Source: an uncultured Carboxylicivirga sp. (GTDB lineage: Bacteria; Bacteroidota; Bacteroidia; Bacteroidales; Marinilabiliaceae). Taken from it: a DNA stretch of 64,000 nt. The stretch is from positions 3,032,879 through 3,096,878 of the forward strand of contig OY771430.1 of the NCBI GenBank assembly GCA_963674565.1, read 5' to 3'. Within the stretch, counting starts at the first letter, position 1; each line of letters starts with the position of its first letter. Position numbers and translations under genes: made by a program. This document shows positions 45,455-49,534 of the stretch, one piece after another. The notes beneath the pieces were generated by a model. That model had not been told where the DNA came from and made no database searches. It was given only the letters and a program-made list of their open reading frames with translations.

Positions 45455-47773
45455 CTATCTTCCCTCCAATTGCTGAATCACCTGATTCAGATCCTGCGAA
45501 GCTTCAGGATAACTATTCAGCATATTACGAGCAAAAGACAGTGCTTTTTGTTGCATACCGTTATTCAAATAAAACTGTAATAAACCGGCATTACTGTTAT
45601 AATCTTTCATCAGATTAATTTCCTTTTTCAGATAAGCTTCAGCCTTCCCCTTATCGCCCATAAAATCATACATCATTGCAATATTATGTGCCACTCTTGG
45701 ACGACTTTGATCTAGCAAATATGACTTCTCCAACATTTGCAGCGACTCATTATACTTCTTTATCTCAGAAAGCAACAAACCATACGAATACATTGCATTT
45801 GCATCATCTGGCTCATCCTTCAGGTAATCATCAAAAAGCTCTACCGCCTTATCATTCTCCCCCTGGCGATTATAGGCATGTGCAAGATTAAGTTTCACAA
45901 AATGCAATTCTTTGTCTTGTTTTAAAGTTTTCAAATACCACTCTACAGCCAGTTCCGTTTTACCCTGATTATAATAAAAGTTACCTAAATTGAATTTACC
46001 GGTTGGAAAATCAGCACTATAAATCAACACTTGCTCGTATTCATCCAATGCTTTTTGATAACTCTTCTTATAATTGGCTGGTACATTACTCTCTCCTGCA
46101 GCTAAAAGGATGCGGGCAGTCTCTGTGCGAACTGCCTTTGTTTCATCATTCAGCATGGGCATCATCATTTTAATATCTTCCTCAGACTGCACTGTTGTTG
46201 CCCGAAGAGCAGCCAACCTTATTGTAGGATATAAATGATGAATGTAACTATCAGCCTGCAGCTTTAGTGAATCCTGAAAATATGTTCCCATATGCTGTAT
46301 AGCCAGAGCACGTATACTCATCGGGTACAATTCATCAGCAGCAATAATATTCAAGTGCCTGATAGCAGAAGTATCTTCACGACGTGCTTCACTGAAAGCT
46401 TCTGCAAAATGATATCGACGACTTTCACCAAACCATTTTTTAATATAGTTTTCTGACCATTGAGCACTTTTATCAACATGACATTGATTACAGGCATTAG
46501 GCACACCATATTTCATGGTCAGATCAGGCCTGGGAATCCGAAAACTATGGTCACGACGATAATCCACTCCCATATAATGACGTCCATGCATATGACAATT
46601 GATACACAATGCACCCGAACCAACATCCATCTTAATTCCGGATTCCGAAATCAACGACTCACCTTCCATTCCTTCTGTTTTATGAAAATGATGCTCTGGA
46701 GTATCGTAAATATCAGGCACATGACACTGAGCACACAACTGATTATATTGTTTACCCTTATTTCCAAACAATAATTTACCACTGTGTACATTATGACAAT
46801 CATTACATTGTACCTCTTTCATATGCATTTTACTTTGCATAAATGAAGCATACACATAATCTTCATCAAGAATTTGCCCATCAATATACCACGTTGGATC
46901 TTCCGGTAAATTTGGGATTACATGGTCATAAATATTTTTCGAATGATGATCAAAATCCTGTAAAGAAGCCCTTCGACTATGGCATCGAACACAATTATTG
47001 ACATACTGAGTATGATCAATTCCACTTGTTTTTACAACAAGTCCGTAATTATCGATATCTTCCTGGGCATATTCAGGCAAAGAGGCCCATTCAAGATGTT
47101 TTGATGCCGGACCATGACATGCCTCACAACTCACATTAATCTCCGACCATGTCGTATTGTACGTATCCGTTTTATGATCGTATCCTTTCTTTAAATTAGT
47201 TGAATGACAATCGGCACACATACTATTCCAGTTCTGCGCCTGATTCGTCCAATGTAACCAGTCATCATTCTTTATTTGCTGACCAGCATAAATATAATCG
47301 GCCATATGATACCAGCGACTACTGTCGCAATCCCAGGTAAGAGCGAGTGTCTGTAATCGTCCTCCAGGAAATTCAACCAGGTATTGTTGTAACGGATAAT
47401 TCCCAAATACATACTTAACTTCAAAATCCTGCATTGTGCCATCTGCACCATCTGTATTAACCATAAATCGGCCATCCTTTTTAAAGAATCGATGATTCAT
47501 GCCCTGAGCCTCAATAACAACATTATTAAAGTCACCTAAAACTGATGAATCAGTAGCATCATCCATAGCCTTGTTATGATGCGATTGCAACCATTCATTA
47601 TATTCAGGCTGATGGCATTCAATACAAGTTTCAACACCTTTATAATCAGCCTTATCAACTGTAACCTCATCATTAGCAACATAAGTTTTAATCAACAAAT
47701 ATACAGGCAATAGCATTAGAGTCACAATGCCCAGTATTCGAATAATCTTACTATATTTTAAAATATTAGTCAT
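45455..47773 (-). CDS. Octaheme c-type cytochrome with HEAT/TPR C-terminus
   Basis: Eight CxxCH motifs (CIECH, CADCH, CEACH, CVRCH, CNDCH, CAQCH, CINCH, CNQCH), an N-terminal membrane anchor, and C-terminal TPR-like repeats (FNLGNFYYNQG, NLAHAYNRQG, YSYGLLLSE). Confidence 0.88.
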   Translation of the reverse strand: MTNILKYSKIIRILGIVTLMLLPVYLLIKTYVANDEVTVDKADYKGVETCIECHQPEYNEWLQSHHNKAMDDATDSSVLGDFNNVVIEAQGMNHRFFKKDGRFMVNTDGADGTMQDFEVKYVFGNYPLQQYLVEFPGGRLQTLALTWDCDSSRWYHMADYIYAGQQIKNDDWLHWTNQAQNWNSMCADCHSTNLKKGYDHKTDTYNTTWSEINVSCEACHGPASKHLEWASLPEYAQEDIDNYGLVVKTSGIDHTQYVNNCVRCHSRRASLQDFDHHSKNIYDHVIPNLPEDPTWYIDGQILDEDYVYASFMQSKMHMKEVQCNDCHNVHSGKLLFGNKGKQYNQLCAQCHVPDIYDTPEHHFHKTEGMEGESLISESGIKMDVGSGALCINCHMHGRHYMGVDYRRDHSFRIPRPDLTMKYGVPNACNQCHVDKSAQWSENYIKKWFGESRRYHFAEAFSEARREDTSAIRHLNIIAADELYPMSIRALAIQHMGTYFQDSLKLQADSYIHHLYPTIRLAALRATTVQSEEDIKMMMPMLNDETKAVRTETARILLAAGESNVPANYKKSYQKALDEYEQVLIYSADFPTGKFNLGNFYYNQGKTELAVEWYLKTLKQDKELHFVKLNLAHAYNRQGENDKAVELFDDYLKDEPDDANAMYSYGLLLSEIKKYNESLQMLEKSYLLDQSRPRVAHNIAMMYDFMGDKGKAEAYLKKEINLMKDYNSNAGLLQFYLNNGMQQKALSFARNMLNSYPEASQDLNQVIQQLEGR

Positions 47774-48250
47774 CTATACATAGGTTACTTGTGAGTTCTC
47801 ATATTTATTTCTCCTTACCGGATTATTAACATCCACTAATACCTTGTCATCCTGAATAGAAATCGGATAAATATCCAACGCCCTGGTTGCCGGAGGAGAT
47901 AAAACCTCGCCGTATTTATTAAAAGAAGAAGCATGACACGGACACACAAATCGATCTTTATTTTGATTAAACTGAATAGCACATCCCAGATGAGTACAAT
48001 GAATCGAGATAGCTATAAGGCCACCATCTTCCAAACGAGACAAATAAAAATGTGCAGCCCCAAATGGATATACTTTCCCTTTTTCGAAAAAATTGATGTT
48101 CCCGGCATCAAACCAACCATCTGAAGCCCTATTATTTTTCTTCTTGCGCAAAACTCCCGTAAAAACATAAATTATTTCAAGTGATAAAAGTGCATATACA
48201 GCTCTTTTAATAAATGTTCGTCGGTTTAATTTAAATTTCATTAATCGCAT
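47774..48250 (-). CDS. Rieske [2Fe-2S] subunit (QcrA/PetC-like)
   Basis: Box 1 CTHLGC and box 2 CPCHASSF. The N-terminal RRTFIKRA plus hydrophobic helix is Tat-like. Confidence 0.92.
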   Translation of the reverse strand: MRLMKFKLNRRTFIKRAVYALLSLEIIYVFTGVLRKKKNNRASDGWFDAGNINFFEKGKVYPFGAAHFYLSRLEDGGLIAISIHCTHLGCAIQFNQNKDRFVCPCHASSFNKYGEVLSPPATRALDIYPISIQDDKVLVDVNNPVRRNKYENSQVTYV

Positions 48251-48259
48251 TCTTAAAAA

Positions 48260-49534
48260 TTAAGCAAACAGATGCATTCCTTCTCCCCTAAATAAGCTTC
48301 CCACAATGGTCATTACAATATAAGCGACAATTATTATCGTAAACATGGCCATTACCAAATCAACTTTGGAAGCATTGTATTTCGATTTTAAAAAATATAG
48401 GAACGCAGCAGCGGGAACCAAATATAAAAGCAATAGCAATAAGCCTGTACTAATCAGCAACGGAACCTGTGGCATCCAATCGCGAAGATCCAGAAAGAAT
48501 TCGCTTGTAATAATCACAAGTAAAGTCAACACCACAGCATAAGCAAATGAAATAACAGTTAGCTTCTTACCTTTATTAGAATTAAACCAAACACCAACAT
48601 TTAAATCTGTATATTTTATAAAAGGAATATAAACTAAAAAAGCCGTCACTAACAATGGAATTACAAATATTCCGAATCCGGGATGGATATGAAGTAGCAA
48701 TTCCTGAAACCCCATAAAATACCATGGTGCCTTACTCGGATTAGGACTAATTAATGGGTTTGCCTTTGTTTGAAGAGGAGCATTTACCATCATAGACAAA
48801 AGAAACAAAACAATAATTACAATCAGAGCCACTACAATCTCCTTAAATAATAGATTTGGATATGTGGGCACCATAACTTTTTCATCATTATTCTGAACAG
48901 TAACACCTTTAGATTTACGTACCAACCAAAAGTGAACAGACATAAGAAAAACCATCAACAAAGGCAATAAACCAGTATGGAAATGATAGAATCGAAGCAA
49001 AGTTATTTCTGTCACTTCATCACCCCCTCTAACCATGTCGGCTATGACGTCTCCCACAATAGGAATATAGCTTAACATGTTGGTCATAATGGTTACTGCC
49101 CAAAAAGACAATTGATCCCATGGCAACAGATAACCTGTGAAATTTGAAAACACCACCAGAAACATTATAAACATTCCATACATCCAATTCTTCCTTCTTT
49201 CGTGATAAATGGATTGAGTATAAAACACTCTTAATACATGTAGAAATGAAACCAGCACCAGAGCCATACCACTCCAATAATGAAGATTTCGCAATAATTG
49301 GCCAAACAAAACCTGATTCTCCAATTCTATAATGGAATCATAAGCTCCTTTAACCGATGGAACATAGGCAAAACGCAACAACATTCCTGAAACAAATAGC
49401 AGAACAAATAACAAAGCTGCTATACCTCCCAAACCAAATGTTCGTGTAAATTTAATTGATTGCGCATCTACCTTATTAGGATGTAGATGTAAAAGTAATT
49501 TTGTTATGGCCTTAGAATGCCCGGCTGTATTCAT
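48260..49534 (-). CDS. Cytochrome b of a Rieske/cytb complex (b6-like plus fused subunit IV and extra TM helices)
   Basis: FGLGGIA, LLRNLHYWSG...FLHVLRVF, FTGYLLPWDQLSFWA, RFYHFH...SVH, and a PEWY-equivalent PSKAPWYF. Confidence 0.9.
   Translation of the reverse strand: MNTAGHSKAITKLLLHLHPNKVDAQSIKFTRTFGLGGIAALLFVLLFVSGMLLRFAYVPSVKGAYDSIIELENQVLFGQLLRNLHYWSGMALVLVSFLHVLRVFYTQSIYHERRKNWMYGMFIMFLVVFSNFTGYLLPWDQLSFWAVTIMTNMLSYIPIVGDVIADMVRGGDEVTEITLLRFYHFHTGLLPLLMVFLMSVHFWLVRKSKGVTVQNNDEKVMVPTYPNLLFKEIVVALIVIIVLFLLSMMVNAPLQTKANPLISPNPSKAPWYFMGFQELLLHIHPGFGIFVIPLLVTAFLVYIPFIKYTDLNVGVWFNSNKGKKLTVISFAYAVVLTLLVIITSEFFLDLRDWMPQVPLLISTGLLLLLLYLVPAAAFLYFLKSKYNASKVDLVMAMFTIIIVAYIVMTIVGSLFRGEGMHLFA

What the first reader, a model, noticed from the sequence alone, without database searches (positions are those of the whole stretch)
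45455..49534. Cytochrome b + Rieske + octaheme-c/TPR operon: a non-canonical Rieske/cytb complex in a Bacteroidota genome
Seen in the sequence: three tightly coupled minus-strand genes. Cytochrome b is followed after 9 bp by a Tat-type Rieske protein, whose stop codon abuts the ATG of a 772-aa membrane-anchored protein with eight CxxCH motifs and a HEAT/TPR tail. There is no cytochrome c1/f gene. Established: Bacteroidota generally lack bc1/b6f complexes, and aerobic members such as Flavobacterium use Alternative Complex III; Rieske/cytb complexes with multiheme partners are known in anammox bacteria and some Desulfobacterota. Inference: the octaheme-TPR protein, a family of unclear function, replaces cytochrome c1 as acceptor or terminal enzyme for menaquinol-derived electrons, giving an uncharacterised respiratory or detoxifying branch.
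Basis: partly seen in the sequence, partly recalled or inferred. Interest (0 to 1): 0.75.

Follow-up and report, generated by a model that had tools for sequence, protein, structure and literature searches.

The report
Rieske/cytochrome b with octahaem-TPR subunit
Three tightly packed genes encode a variant of the respiratory cytochrome bc complex in which the usual cytochrome c1 is replaced by a membrane-anchored eight-haem protein with a protein-docking tail; the trio moves as a unit through at least seven bacterial phyla, and I found no study of it.

Summary
On the minus strand lie a fused b6/subunit-IV-type cytochrome b (424 aa), a Tat-exported Rieske protein 9 bp later (158 aa), and a 772-aa N-terminally anchored protein with eight CxxCH motifs and a HEAT/TPR tail whose ATG abuts the Rieske stop.

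The trio is a real, conserved module.
- In a well-supported clade of the octahaem family, 40 of 46 loci keep the order cytb-Rieske-octahaem, across seven phyla.
- Nothing else in the neighbourhood is conserved.
- The three proteins' distance matrices correlate (r about 0.8).
- In 300 genomes of the same order, 17 have both genes, 3 the octahaem only, none cytochrome b only.

Cytochrome b has the APWY Qo motif, b6-type histidine spacing and no haem-ci cysteine. The Rieske signature is S-F. The haem domain folds like OcwA, OmhA and MccA.

The genome also has an ACIII-like complex, NrfAH and CcsBA.

The most likely reading is a menaquinol:octahaem-cytochrome oxidoreductase. Three things remain unshown: the direction of electron flow, the acceptor, and whether one haem is catalytic. 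A recurrent sulfatase association of the octahaem family is an unexplained lead. I found no paper on the trio.

The parts
48260..49534 (-). Cytochrome b, 424 aa, about 9 transmembrane helices. It is a fusion of a b6-like N-terminal half and a subunit-IV-like half plus extra helices.
   Evidence: Pfam Cytochrome_B 7e-44. The best NCBIfam hit is ExtP at 241 bits, below the cut-off of 290, with ExtQ on residues 229-343. The best PDB hit is cytochrome b6 at 2e-40. His85/His99 and His186/His201 have b6-type spacing, and the protein has no cysteine.
48719..48730 (-). Qo-site motif APWY (residues 269-272) in place of PEWY/PDWY.
   Evidence: APWY is present in 28 of 34 cytochromes b linked to an octahaem gene. 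The motif class is defined in PMC4122944.
47774..48250 (-). Rieske [2Fe-2S] protein, 158 aa, with an N-terminal anchor helix.
   Evidence: Pfam Rieske 4e-12. NCBIfam b6f iron-sulfur subunit 1.8e-17, below cut-off. The best PDB hits are small Rieske domains 8hn2 and 9rk4.
48206..48223 (-). Twin-arginine (Tat) export motif RRTFIK.
   Evidence: Read from the translation. An RR-x-F motif is kept in homologues.
47921..47998 (-). Cluster-binding boxes CTHLGC and CPCHASSF. Both disulfide cysteines are present and the signature is S-F.
   Evidence: Homologues have CTHLGC in 28 of 30 and CPCH-x-S-x-F in 27 of 30.
45455..47773 (-). Octahaem c-type cytochrome with a HEAT/TPR tail, 772 aa.
   Evidence: The AlphaFold2 model has mean pLDDT 92.5 and pTM 0.88.
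47690..47746 (-). N-terminal transmembrane anchor (residues 10-28).
   Evidence: Hydropathy scan. Modelled as one long helix over residues 2-31.
46370..47668 (-). Haem domain (residues 36-468) with eight CxxCH motifs and a beta-sheet sub-domain at residues 70-156.
   Evidence: Invariant in 83 homologues: all eight CxxCH, His66/226/330/361/364/409, Met316/401 and the R406-x-D408-H409 motif. Fold search: OcwA 6i5b E 2e-12, TM 0.56; OmhA 6qvm; MccA 4rkm. Profile against PDB: OcwA 8e-25.
45458..46369 (-). All-helical HEAT-like and TPR repeat tail (residues 469-772).
   Evidence: Pfam TPR families on residues 569-760. HEAT_2 in homologues. Helical repeats in the model. Fold matches to TPR superhelices.
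49591..49598 (-). TACTTTTG, a match to the Bacteroidota -7 promoter consensus TAnnTTTG, 57 nt before the cytb ATG. This part is tentative.
   Evidence: Read by eye. The consensus comes from my own knowledge. No statistics were done, and the sigma-70 scan found nothing above chance.

Best explanation
The three genes most likely encode one membrane complex of the Rieske/cytochrome b kind.

Proposed mechanism (inferred):
1. Menaquinol is oxidised at the Qo site of a fused b6/subunit-IV-type cytochrome b (APWY type, two b haems, no haem ci).
2. One electron goes to the Tat-exported, membrane-anchored Rieske cluster.
3. From there it goes into the eight-haem chain of the third subunit, which sits where cytochrome c1 or f would be. 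This subunit is held by an N-terminal rather than a C-terminal helix.
4. The second electron crosses the membrane through haems bL and bH in a Q cycle, so the reaction would build proton-motive force.
5. The octahaem subunit belongs to the OcwA/OmhA/MccA branch of multihaem cytochromes.
6. Its HEAT/TPR tail is a docking surface for something not encoded next to it.

Only the three genes travel together. I therefore think the octahaem protein is itself the exit point of the electrons, either a promiscuous or dedicated terminal reductase or a direct contact to its substrate, rather than a relay to a fixed partner protein.

Shown: the gene structure, all cofactor-binding residues, the fold class, the conserved linkage and co-inheritance, and haem maturation capacity in the genome.

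Inferred: the physical complex, the quinol-to-octahaem direction, the Q cycle, and the acceptor.
For: - Linkage: cytb-Rieske-octahaem is collinear in 39 of 80 loci. By the tree it is collinear in 40 of 46 members (window included) of one clade with SH-aLRT 99, spanning Bacteroidota, Ignavibacteriota, Calditrichota, Thermodesulfobacteriota, Acidobacteriota, Gemmatimonadota and Pseudomonadota.
- Same trio, same protein lengths but different flanks in Aureibacter tunicatorum.
- Rieske-to-octahaem gaps are mostly between -11 and +12 nt.
- Pairwise distances correlate at r = 0.82 (octahaem vs cytb) and r = 0.81 (octahaem vs Rieske), Mantel p = 0.001.
- Order sample of 300 genomes: 17 have both, 3 octahaem only, 0 cytb only. 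Of the 17, 11 are collinear, 4 divergent but adjacent, and 2 unlinked.
- No other conserved neighbour.
- All four b-haem histidines are invariant. The Rieske boxes and Tat motif are conserved. The eight CxxCH motifs and candidate distal ligands are invariant.
- Confident model with an OcwA/MccA-type fold.
- The genome has a fused CcsBA, so c-haem attachment is possible. It has only this one cytochrome b.
Against:
- No multimer model could be made, so no interface is shown.
- The APWY Qo motif lacks the carboxylate of PEWY/PDWY. Kao and Hunte (PMC4122944) regard APWY complexes as uncharacterised and possibly running in reverse.
- The Rieske S-F signature is rated mid-to-high potential there, which is unusual for a menaquinol oxidiser.
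- A sister clade of the octahaem family works without Rieske/cytb, so the octahaem protein does not strictly need this donor.
- In four genomes with the divergent arrangement, the Rieske/cytb operon has its own 684-aa cytochrome c.
- The host already has an ACIII-like quinol oxidoreductase.
Confidence: 0.6

Rival explanations
1. Same complex, opposite direction. The octahaem subunit collects electrons from a periplasmic oxidation, or from outside the cell. The APWY-type Rieske/cytochrome b pushes them into the menaquinone pool at the expense of proton-motive force. This is what was proposed for the Geobacter metallireducens p-cresol methylhydroxylase-linked complex.
For: - The APWY Qo motif is present in 28 of 34 linked cytochromes b.
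- The Rieske S-F signature is present in 27 of 30.
- PMC4122944 links APWY to reverse operation and notes that no APWY complex has been characterised.
- Hosts include a sulfate reducer labelled Eth-SRB2 (L020). From my own knowledge this is a syntrophic partner that takes up electrons extracellularly.
- Cytochrome c554, a relative of the haem domain, carries electrons towards the quinone pool in nitrifiers (own knowledge).
Against: - Most hosts are heterotrophs or fermenters with no obvious need for uphill electron input.
- No oxidising enzyme is conserved beside the unit.
- The reverse-operation idea in the paper is itself only a proposal.
Confidence: 0.2
2. The octahaem subunit is a true enzyme with one five-coordinate haem, as in its structural relatives MccA, c554 and OcwA. 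The trio would then be a self-contained, proton-motive quinol:X reductase. X could be nitrite, hydroxylamine, NO, sulfite or a related small oxyanion. This sub-case overlaps with the best explanation.
For: - The fold and profile matches are only to the OcwA/OmhA/MccA/c554 branch. In that branch haem 2 is five-coordinate, and OcwA reduces nitrite and hydroxylamine (PMC6703420; PMC9250108).
- His361-His362-x-His364 aligns with the OcwA His-His motif that lies over an open haem.
- The invariant R406-x-D408-H409 motif and the DGQ...E304-x-Y306 segment look like a pocket rather than a surface.
- Only three genes travel together.
Against: - There are exactly eight invariant candidate distal ligands (six His, two Met) for eight haems, so all haems may be six-coordinate.
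- There is no CxxCK, no CX15CH and no conserved extra cysteine pair for a copper site. The only other cysteine, C149, is not conserved.
- The genome already has NrfAH.
Confidence: 0.3
3. The octahaem-HEAT/TPR family is a redox partner of exported sulfatases, and the Rieske/cytb unit merely connects it to the quinone pool.
For: - Sulfatase genes are the only other recurrent neighbours. They occur in 21 of 80 loci, account for 25 of about 650 non-unit ORFs, and fill 9 of 134 directly flanking slots, in all clades of the family.
- In Aureibacter they lie directly upstream.
- In genome G604, which has only 4 sulfatase hits, one lies directly downstream of the octahaem gene.
- Octahaem-positive genomes of the order have a median of 10.5 sulfatase hits against 3 in negatives, p = 0.003, not corrected for phylogeny.
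Against: - In this window and genome no sulfatase lies near the unit. The motif scan gave 11 sulfatase-like ORFs, the nearest about 470 kb away.
- Most collinear loci have no sulfatase.
- Many hosts are sulfatase-rich polysaccharide degraders, so part of the signal is lifestyle.
- No chemistry is known that would need such a partner.
Confidence: 0.1
4. The genes are neighbours without forming a complex. Rieske/cytb reduces soluble carriers, and the octahaem-TPR protein has an unrelated role, for example in assembly as TPR proteins of cytochrome maturation do.
For: - The octahaem family exists alone in a whole clade.
- Two of 17 genomes in the order sample have the genes unlinked.
- Some homologues give weak hits to the CcmH/CycH TPR family.
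Against: - The order and tight or overlapping junctions are conserved across seven phyla.
- Distance matrices correlate.
- No genome in the sample has this cytochrome b without the octahaem gene.
- No other c-type cytochrome gene lies in the collinear units.
Confidence: 0.08

Closest known systems
'APWY clade' of Rieske/cytochrome b complexes (Kao and Hunte 2014, PMC4122944)
   Same: The Qo motif APWY. The Rieske protein has the S-F (mid-to-high potential) signature. Distribution is taxonomically mixed and patchy, suggesting horizontal transfer. No member is characterised.
   Different: [quoted passage not shown] It does not describe an octahaem-HEAT/TPR partner. Membership here rests on the motif, not on a tree with its reference sequences.
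Geobacter Ext/Cbc-type b6-like cytochrome (NCBIfam ExtP NF040969 and ExtQ NF040970)
   Same: This is the best-scoring curated family for the cytochrome b: 241 bits for the b6-like half and a hit for the subunit-IV-like half. It is also encoded with multihaem c-type cytochromes.
   Different: The scores are below the curated cut-offs (290 and 150). Here the two halves are fused. The iron-sulfur partner is a Rieske protein rather than ExtO. The cytochrome partner is of another family.
OcwA of Thermincola potens (PDB 6I5B; PMC6703420)
   Same: Closest solved relative of the haem domain by profile (8e-25) and by fold (E 2e-12, TM 0.56/0.51). It shares a beta-sheet sub-domain. Six non-motif histidines and the HH-x-H motif are shared.
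   Different: OcwA has nine haems, is a cell-surface protein of a Gram-positive bacterium, ends in a three-helix bundle, and has no TM anchor, HEAT/TPR tail or Rieske/cytb partner. Sequence identity is about 16%.
MccA octahaem sulfite reductase (PDB 4RKM) and cytochrome c554
   Same: Same structural branch (PMC9250108). MccA also has eight haems and the beta-sheet domain.
   Different: There is no CX15CH motif and no conserved cysteine pair for copper. The matches are weak (E 3e-5 by fold, 1e-4 by profile). MccA is soluble and is served by a different quinol dehydrogenase (own knowledge).
Anammox Rieske/cytb complexes with HAO-like octahaem subunits, and the Caldithrix abyssi Rieske/cytb inside the Nap/epsilon-Hao cluster (PMC12954380, not read here: cited from its abstract as listed, from the 9rk4 hit, which I take to be one of its Kuenenia Rieske proteins, and from my own knowledge; PMC5317091)
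   Same: A Rieske/cytb pair without c1, genetically tied to an octahaem cytochrome. The small Rieske domain type matches, with 9rk4 among the best PDB hits. Multihaem acceptors were proposed there.
   Different: Those octahaem proteins belong to the HAO branch, not the OcwA/MccA branch. They have no HEAT/TPR tail, and the operons contain further enzymes.
Cytochrome b6f and the green-sulfur-bacterial Rieske/cytb complex
   Same: b6-type spacing of the haem ligands in helix D. Cytochrome b6 is the best solved match (2e-40). A Chlorobaculum-type small Rieske domain is the best Rieske match (8hn2).
   Different: The b6 and subunit-IV parts are fused. Gly34 replaces the haem-ci cysteine. The Qo motif is APWY, not PEWY. 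There is no cytochrome f or c-556 partner.

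Membership tests
Rieske/cytochrome b (bc) complex superfamily | Cytochrome b with two His pairs in helices B and D for haems bL and bH | tested here: met
   His85/99 and His186/201 are present and invariant in 34 of 34 homologues. Pfam Cytochrome_B 7e-44.
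Rieske/cytochrome b (bc) complex superfamily | Rieske protein with CxHxGC and CxCH boxes including the disulfide cysteines, exported by Tat and membrane-anchored | tested here: met
   CTHLGC, CPCH, the RRTFIK motif and one hydrophobic helix, all conserved in homologues.
Rieske/cytochrome b (bc) complex superfamily | Qo-site motif at the start of the ef helix | tested here: met
   APWY at residues 269-272, one of the six major patterns listed in PMC4122944.
Rieske/cytochrome b (bc) complex superfamily | The subunits form one complex that oxidises quinol by a Q cycle | not testable with these tools
   Only genetic linkage and co-evolution were shown. No multimer prediction or biochemistry was available.
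Cytochrome bc1 complex | Cytochrome c1 subunit encoded with Rieske and cytochrome b, gene order Rieske first | tested here: not met
   There is no c1-like ORF in the unit. The order is cytb-Rieske-octahaem.
Cytochrome b6f-type complex | Split cytochrome b6 and subunit IV, with the haem-ci cysteine near the N-terminus | tested here: not met
   The protein is a single 424-aa polypeptide. Gly34 aligns with the b6 cysteine, and the protein has no cysteine at all.
APWY clade of cytochrome b (Kao and Hunte 2014) | APWY motif together with a Rieske protein of mid-to-high potential signature | tested here: met
   APWY in 28 of 34 and the S-F signature in 27 of 30 linked homologues.
APWY clade of cytochrome b (Kao and Hunte 2014) | Placement inside that clade in a cytochrome b tree with its reference sequences | not tested
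NCBIfam ExtP / ExtQ equivalogs | Score above the curated cut-off | tested here: not met
   241.2 bits against a cut-off of 290 for ExtP, and 45.3 against 150 for ExtQ.
OcwA/OmhA/MccA/c554 branch of NrfA-like multihaem cytochromes | Shared fold and haem-motif order | tested here: met
   In the Foldseek search only these entries passed E 0.001: 6i5b at 2e-12, 6qvm at 1.6e-6 and 4rkm at 3e-5. The profile search agrees.
OcwA/OmhA/MccA/c554 branch of NrfA-like multihaem cytochromes | A five-coordinate haem in the N-terminal part (haem 2) | not testable with these tools
   Model coordinates and haems were not available. Counting ligands gives an ambiguous answer: eight invariant candidates for eight haems.
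MccA sulfite reductase | CX15CH haem motif and a cysteine-ligated copper at the active site | tested here: not met
   Only standard CxxCH motifs are present, plus one non-conserved extra cysteine, C149.

The most novel reading that the evidence does not exclude
The octahaem-HEAT/TPR family may be a so far unknown periplasmic redox partner of exported Cys-type sulfatases, for example an oxygen-independent system that makes or repairs formylglycine. The TPR tail would hold the sulfatase. The APWY-type Rieske/cytochrome b would run in reverse to pass the two electrons into the menaquinone pool. This reading would tie together the two recurrent gene associations of the family (Rieske/cytb and sulfatase) and the odd Qo motif.
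Probability: 0.08. Interest if true: 0.9.

Novelty: new variant of a known kind. Interest (0 to 1): 0.6.

Why it matters
Rieske/cytochrome b complexes are the main proton-motive quinol oxidoreductases of life. Their diversity outside the bc1 and b6f types is known almost only from gene lists.

This trio is a compact, horizontally mobile version with an eight-haem exit subunit. It occurs in many sediment and marine bacteria: fermenting Bacteroidales, Ignavibacteria, sulfate reducers, Gemmatimonadota, Acidobacteriota and Woeseiaceae. The haem domain alone has about 1,600 sequence clusters at 50% identity with E of 1e-30 or better.

Knowing its acceptor would add or reassign a respiratory capacity in all these groups. 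It would also give the first functional data for the APWY type of Qo site, including whether such complexes run forwards or backwards. Several hosts are cultured strains, such as Saccharicrinis fermentans, Mangrovibacterium, Thermophagus, Marinilabilia, Aureibacter and Desulfoluna butyratoxydans, so the question can be tested directly.

Tried and rejected
1. A fixed partner gene. I clustered all ORFs of 80 loci and annotated recurrent neighbours. Nothing was constant except Rieske and cytb. Bat/VWA genes, outer-membrane proteins, kinases and regulators each occur in only a few lineages.
2. The window genome's own T9SS-sorted pentahaem cytochrome as the surface acceptor. It is absent from all 17 order-level genomes that have the unit, so I rejected it.
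3. Rieske-octahaem fusion proteins as proof of contact. Seven long family members (852-946 aa), two of them with long N-terminal extensions, have no Rieske domain.
4. Fold search with the full-length model. The results were swamped by TPR proteins, so I repeated it with a model of the haem domain alone.
5. Reading axial ligands from the model. Coordinates are not exposed, so only conservation and the alignment to OcwA could be used.
7. Literature. Seven text searches and one search for six RefSeq accessions of homologues found no paper on the trio. The library does not hold most subscription-journal papers, for example the reviews of ten Brink et al. and Dibrova et al. 2013, so prior mention cannot be excluded.
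8. NosZ as a possible acceptor. A CuA-motif scan of the genome found none. This is a weak test.
9. Caldithrix. The published type-strain analysis reports only one Rieske/cytb pair, in the Nap cluster. Locus L012 with the trio comes from a metagenome bin labelled Caldithrix abyssi and is probably another Calditrichia organism.

Full report
**What is there.**
One search lists three minus-strand ORFs at the coordinates given.
- 49534..48260: 424 aa.
- 48250..47774: 158 aa, 9 bp after the first gene.
- 47773..45455: 772 aa; its ATG directly follows the TAG of the second gene.

Pfam names them Cytochrome_B (7e-44), Rieske (4e-12), and Cytochrome_C554 plus TPR families. The third protein has eight CxxCH motifs at residues 50, 186, 216, 261, 323, 347, 390 and 428. 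It has one N-terminal transmembrane helix. Its tail is all-helical HEAT/TPR from about residue 437 to the end.

Three tandem tRNA-Lys(UUU) genes on the plus strand close the unit downstream. An 834-bp gene-free spacer lies upstream. The AmmeMemoRadiSam genes further downstream lie beyond the tRNAs and are not part of the unit.

**The host.**
The window lies in a single 5.99-Mb contig of 36% G+C. The best named relatives of the octahaem protein come from Carboxylicivirga (78% and below) and other Marinilabiliaceae and Prolixibacteraceae. I infer a Marinilabiliaceae-like member of the Bacteroidales from protein hits only.

The genome has:
- one fused CcsBA haem-attachment protein with a WGxxWxWD motif;
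- NrfA above its curated cut-off, with NrfH;
- an ACIII-like gene row, consisting of a haem-c protein, a QrcB+QrcC-like 987-aa protein, an NrfD-like protein, two small membrane proteins and a monohaem cytochrome;
- a CuA-containing oxidase subunit nearby;
- a PhsA-like molybdoenzyme;
- a 747-aa protein that I take to be a quinol NO reductase, from its length and haem-copper-oxidase motif only, since NCBIfam gave it no hit;
- several further multihaem cytochromes.

It has only one cytochrome b of this kind.

**Anatomy of cytochrome b and Rieske.**
- Cytochrome b has His85/His99 and His186/His201, which is the b6-type 13/14 spacing. It has about nine hydrophobic helices and no cysteine at all.
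- In the alignment to solved cytochrome b6, Gly34 stands where b6 has the cysteine that binds haem ci. This holds in 32 of 34 homologues.
- The Qo motif is APWY.
- The closest curated family is Geobacter ExtP at 241 bits, below the cut-off of 290, with ExtQ for the second half.
- The Rieske protein has the RRTFIK Tat motif and the boxes CTHLGC and CPCHASSF, with both disulfide cysteines and the S-F signature.
- Its nearest solved relatives are small Rieske domains, 8hn2 and 9rk4.

Kao and Hunte (PMC4122944) define an 'APWY clade' of cytochromes b from mixed phyla. These are coupled only to Rieske proteins of S-F or higher-potential type. The authors state that none has been characterised, and they connect the motif with a proposed reversed Q cycle in Geobacter metallireducens. 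By motif and Rieske signature the present pair fits that class. I did not test placement in a tree with their references.

**Anatomy of the octahaem subunit.**
The haem domain family is large. There are 1,604 clusters at 50% identity with E of 1e-30 or better, mostly 750-800 aa long, so most carry the tail.

In 83 homologues the following are invariant:
- all eight CxxCH motifs;
- His66, 226, 330, 361, 364 and 409;
- Met316 and Met401;
- an R406-x-D408-H409 motif.

AlphaFold2 gives a confident model, with pLDDT 92.5 for the full length and 88.9 for the haem domain alone. A beta-sheet sub-domain lies between haems 1 and 2.

The full-length fold search returned only TPR proteins. With the haem domain alone, the only matches below E 0.001 were OcwA (6i5b, 2e-12, TM 0.56/0.51), the undecahaem OmhA (6qvm) and the sulfite reductase MccA (4rkm). 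A sequence profile agrees: OcwA 8e-25, c554 1e-6, MccA 1e-4.

These proteins form one branch of the NrfA-like multihaem cytochromes (PMC9250108). In OcwA, haems 2 and 5 are five-coordinate and covered by His-His motifs, and the protein reduces nitrite and hydroxylamine slowly (PMC6703420). The window's His361-His362-x-His364 aligns with one of these motifs.

There are exactly eight invariant candidate sixth ligands for eight haems. I could not see model coordinates. Whether a haem is open therefore remains undecided.

**Is the trio a unit?**
- A scan of one genome per species with the octahaem alignment returned 80 loci.
- tblastn with the window's cytochrome b and Rieske shows them directly upstream and collinear in 39 loci. 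Three more have a divergent arrangement. The rest have nothing within 7 kb or lack flank.
- On a tree of 75 haem domains, one clade with SH-aLRT 99 has 46 rows. It holds all 40 collinear cases (the window included), three without enough flank, and three unlinked.
- That clade covers Bacteroidota, Ignavibacteriota, Calditrichota, Thermodesulfobacteriota, Acidobacteriota, Gemmatimonadota and Woeseiaceae.
- A second clade of 19 is entirely unlinked: Flavobacteriia, Cytophagia, Chitinophagia, Sphingobacteriia, Balneolota and one Pseudomonadales bin. A third group of 10 is mixed.
- Pairwise distances of the three proteins correlate at r = 0.82, 0.81 and 0.79, Mantel p = 0.001. Most Rieske-octahaem junctions lie between -11 and +12 nt.
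- Aureibacter tunicatorum carries the same trio with the same protein lengths in unrelated flanks.

In 300 evenly drawn genomes of the host's order:
- 17 have a cytochrome b match at E of 1e-40 or better, and 20 have the octahaem protein;
- all 17 with cytochrome b also have the octahaem protein;
- of those 17, 11 are collinear, 4 divergent-adjacent and 2 unlinked;
- no genome has this cytochrome b alone;
- three other genera of the host's own family have neither gene.

In a phylum-wide sample, no genome besides the window's own gave a full-length, high-identity match. The best was 47% identity over residues 12-212.

The module is therefore rare and patchy within the order, co-inherited, and spread by horizontal transfer.

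**What is not conserved.**
Apart from Rieske and cytochrome b, no neighbour is constant. Because only the three genes travel together, I read the unit as functionally self-sufficient. This favours the octahaem subunit being the point where electrons leave or enter, rather than a relay to a dedicated partner enzyme.

A candidate surface partner in this genome, a T9SS-sorted pentahaem protein, is absent from all 17 carriers in the order sample. No Rieske-octahaem fusions were found among long family members.

**The sulfatase lead.**
The one other recurrent neighbour of the octahaem family is sulfatase.
- Sulfatases occur in 21 of 80 loci and in 9 of 134 directly flanking positions, in all three clades. 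They also occur in the Aureibacter locus.
- In the order sample, octahaem-positive genomes have more sulfatase hits (median 10.5 against 3, p = 0.003, uncorrected for phylogeny).
- One carrier with only four sulfatase hits has one directly downstream of the octahaem gene.
- In the window's own genome no sulfatase is near the unit.

Earlier notes of this scan report the same link in other genomes. Those notes are not independent evidence. I keep this as an unexplained lead and as the most novel reading.

**Most likely mechanism.**
My best explanation is a three-subunit Rieske/cytochrome b complex in which the octahaem protein takes the place of cytochrome c1 or f.
1. Menaquinol is oxidised at the APWY Qo site.
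2. One electron goes through the Rieske cluster into the eight-haem chain.
3. The other goes through bL and bH to the Qi site.
4. The HEAT/TPR tail docks something that is not encoded nearby.

Shown:
- the genes;
- the cofactor ligands;
- the fold class;
- the linkage and co-inheritance;
- haem maturation capacity.

Inferred:
- the complex itself;
- the direction of flow;
- the Q cycle;
- the acceptor.

The main rival is the same complex running backwards. The APWY motif and the Rieske signature suggest this, but it rests on a published proposal rather than data. A sub-case, that one haem is catalytic, has about a one-in-three chance in my view.

**Comparison and novelty.**
Rieske/cytochrome b pairs without c1 that are tied to multihaem cytochromes are a known kind. 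Examples are the anammox complexes, the Geobacter Cbc/Ext clusters and the Caldithrix Nap-linked pair.

What differs here is the partner. It is an N-terminally anchored OcwA/MccA-branch octahaem protein with a HEAT/TPR tail, in a fixed three-gene module. I found no paper describing it, with the caveat that subscription-journal reviews are not in the library. I rate it a new variant of a known kind.

Other windows of this scan have already met the same module, so this is a further instance. It adds the Bacteroidales distribution figures, the fold assignment and the sulfatase statistics.

Noticed in passing
window 50043-50303 (both strands): Two copies of a roughly 90-nt unit lie 170 bp apart in the gene-free spacer upstream of cytochrome b. 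Each copy has a 10-bp-stem hairpin followed by a T-run on the plus strand, so it looks like a terminator. The genome holds only four copies. The other pair lies at C1:5482073-5482471, between an endonuclease III gene and a cytidylate-kinase-like gene. An earlier first-reader note calls them sRNA-like units.
   Followed up: partly
loci L004-L083, L002; genomes G604, G514: Sulfatase genes recur next to octahaem-HEAT/TPR genes in all clades of the family (21 of 80 loci). Carriers of the family in the order sample have about three times more sulfatase hits than non-carriers. This association is not present in the window itself.
   Followed up: partly
genome C1:2246442-2248412 (outside the window): A 656-aa protein has five CxxCH motifs and a T9SS type A sorting domain, so it is probably a cell-surface multihaem cytochrome exported by the Bacteroidota-specific secretion system. 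None of 37 other genomes of the order has it.
   Followed up: partly
genome C1:5257438-5263122 (outside the window): A second cytochrome cluster lies behind a gene I took, from its sequence start only, to be a Crp/Fnr-type regulator (not annotated). It contains a hexahaem lipoprotein, a signal-peptide protein of 292 aa, a monohaem cytochrome, a heptahaem protein with a C-terminal helix, and two membrane proteins, one of which looks like a b-type cytochrome.
   Followed up: no
window 45064-45392 (+): Three tandem tRNA-Lys(UUU) genes, spaced 127-128 bp start to start, lie directly after the octahaem gene and converge on it.
   Followed up: no
window 42420-44849 (-): An AmmeMemoRadiSam system in which proteins B and A are fused into one 473-aa polypeptide, followed by the radical SAM enzyme.
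   Followed up: no
loci L065, L067, L069; genomes G475, G523, G602, G641: In a sub-group of Bacteroidales the octahaem gene is transcribed divergently from a Rieske/cytb operon. That operon has an SPWY Qo motif and its own 684-aa cytochrome with multihaem and class I domains.
   Followed up: partly
genome G511 C1:3428322-3429676: One carrier of the order sample has the octahaem gene split into two frames at about residue 212. It lies unlinked, 2.3 Mb from its cytochrome b. It may be decaying.
   Followed up: no
loci L016, L031, L035: In three Desulfobacterales loci, Bat-type genes (BatD, VWA proteins) lie beside the trio. A preprint on Tenderiales notes Bat genes beside an extracellular electron-uptake cluster.
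   Followed up: no
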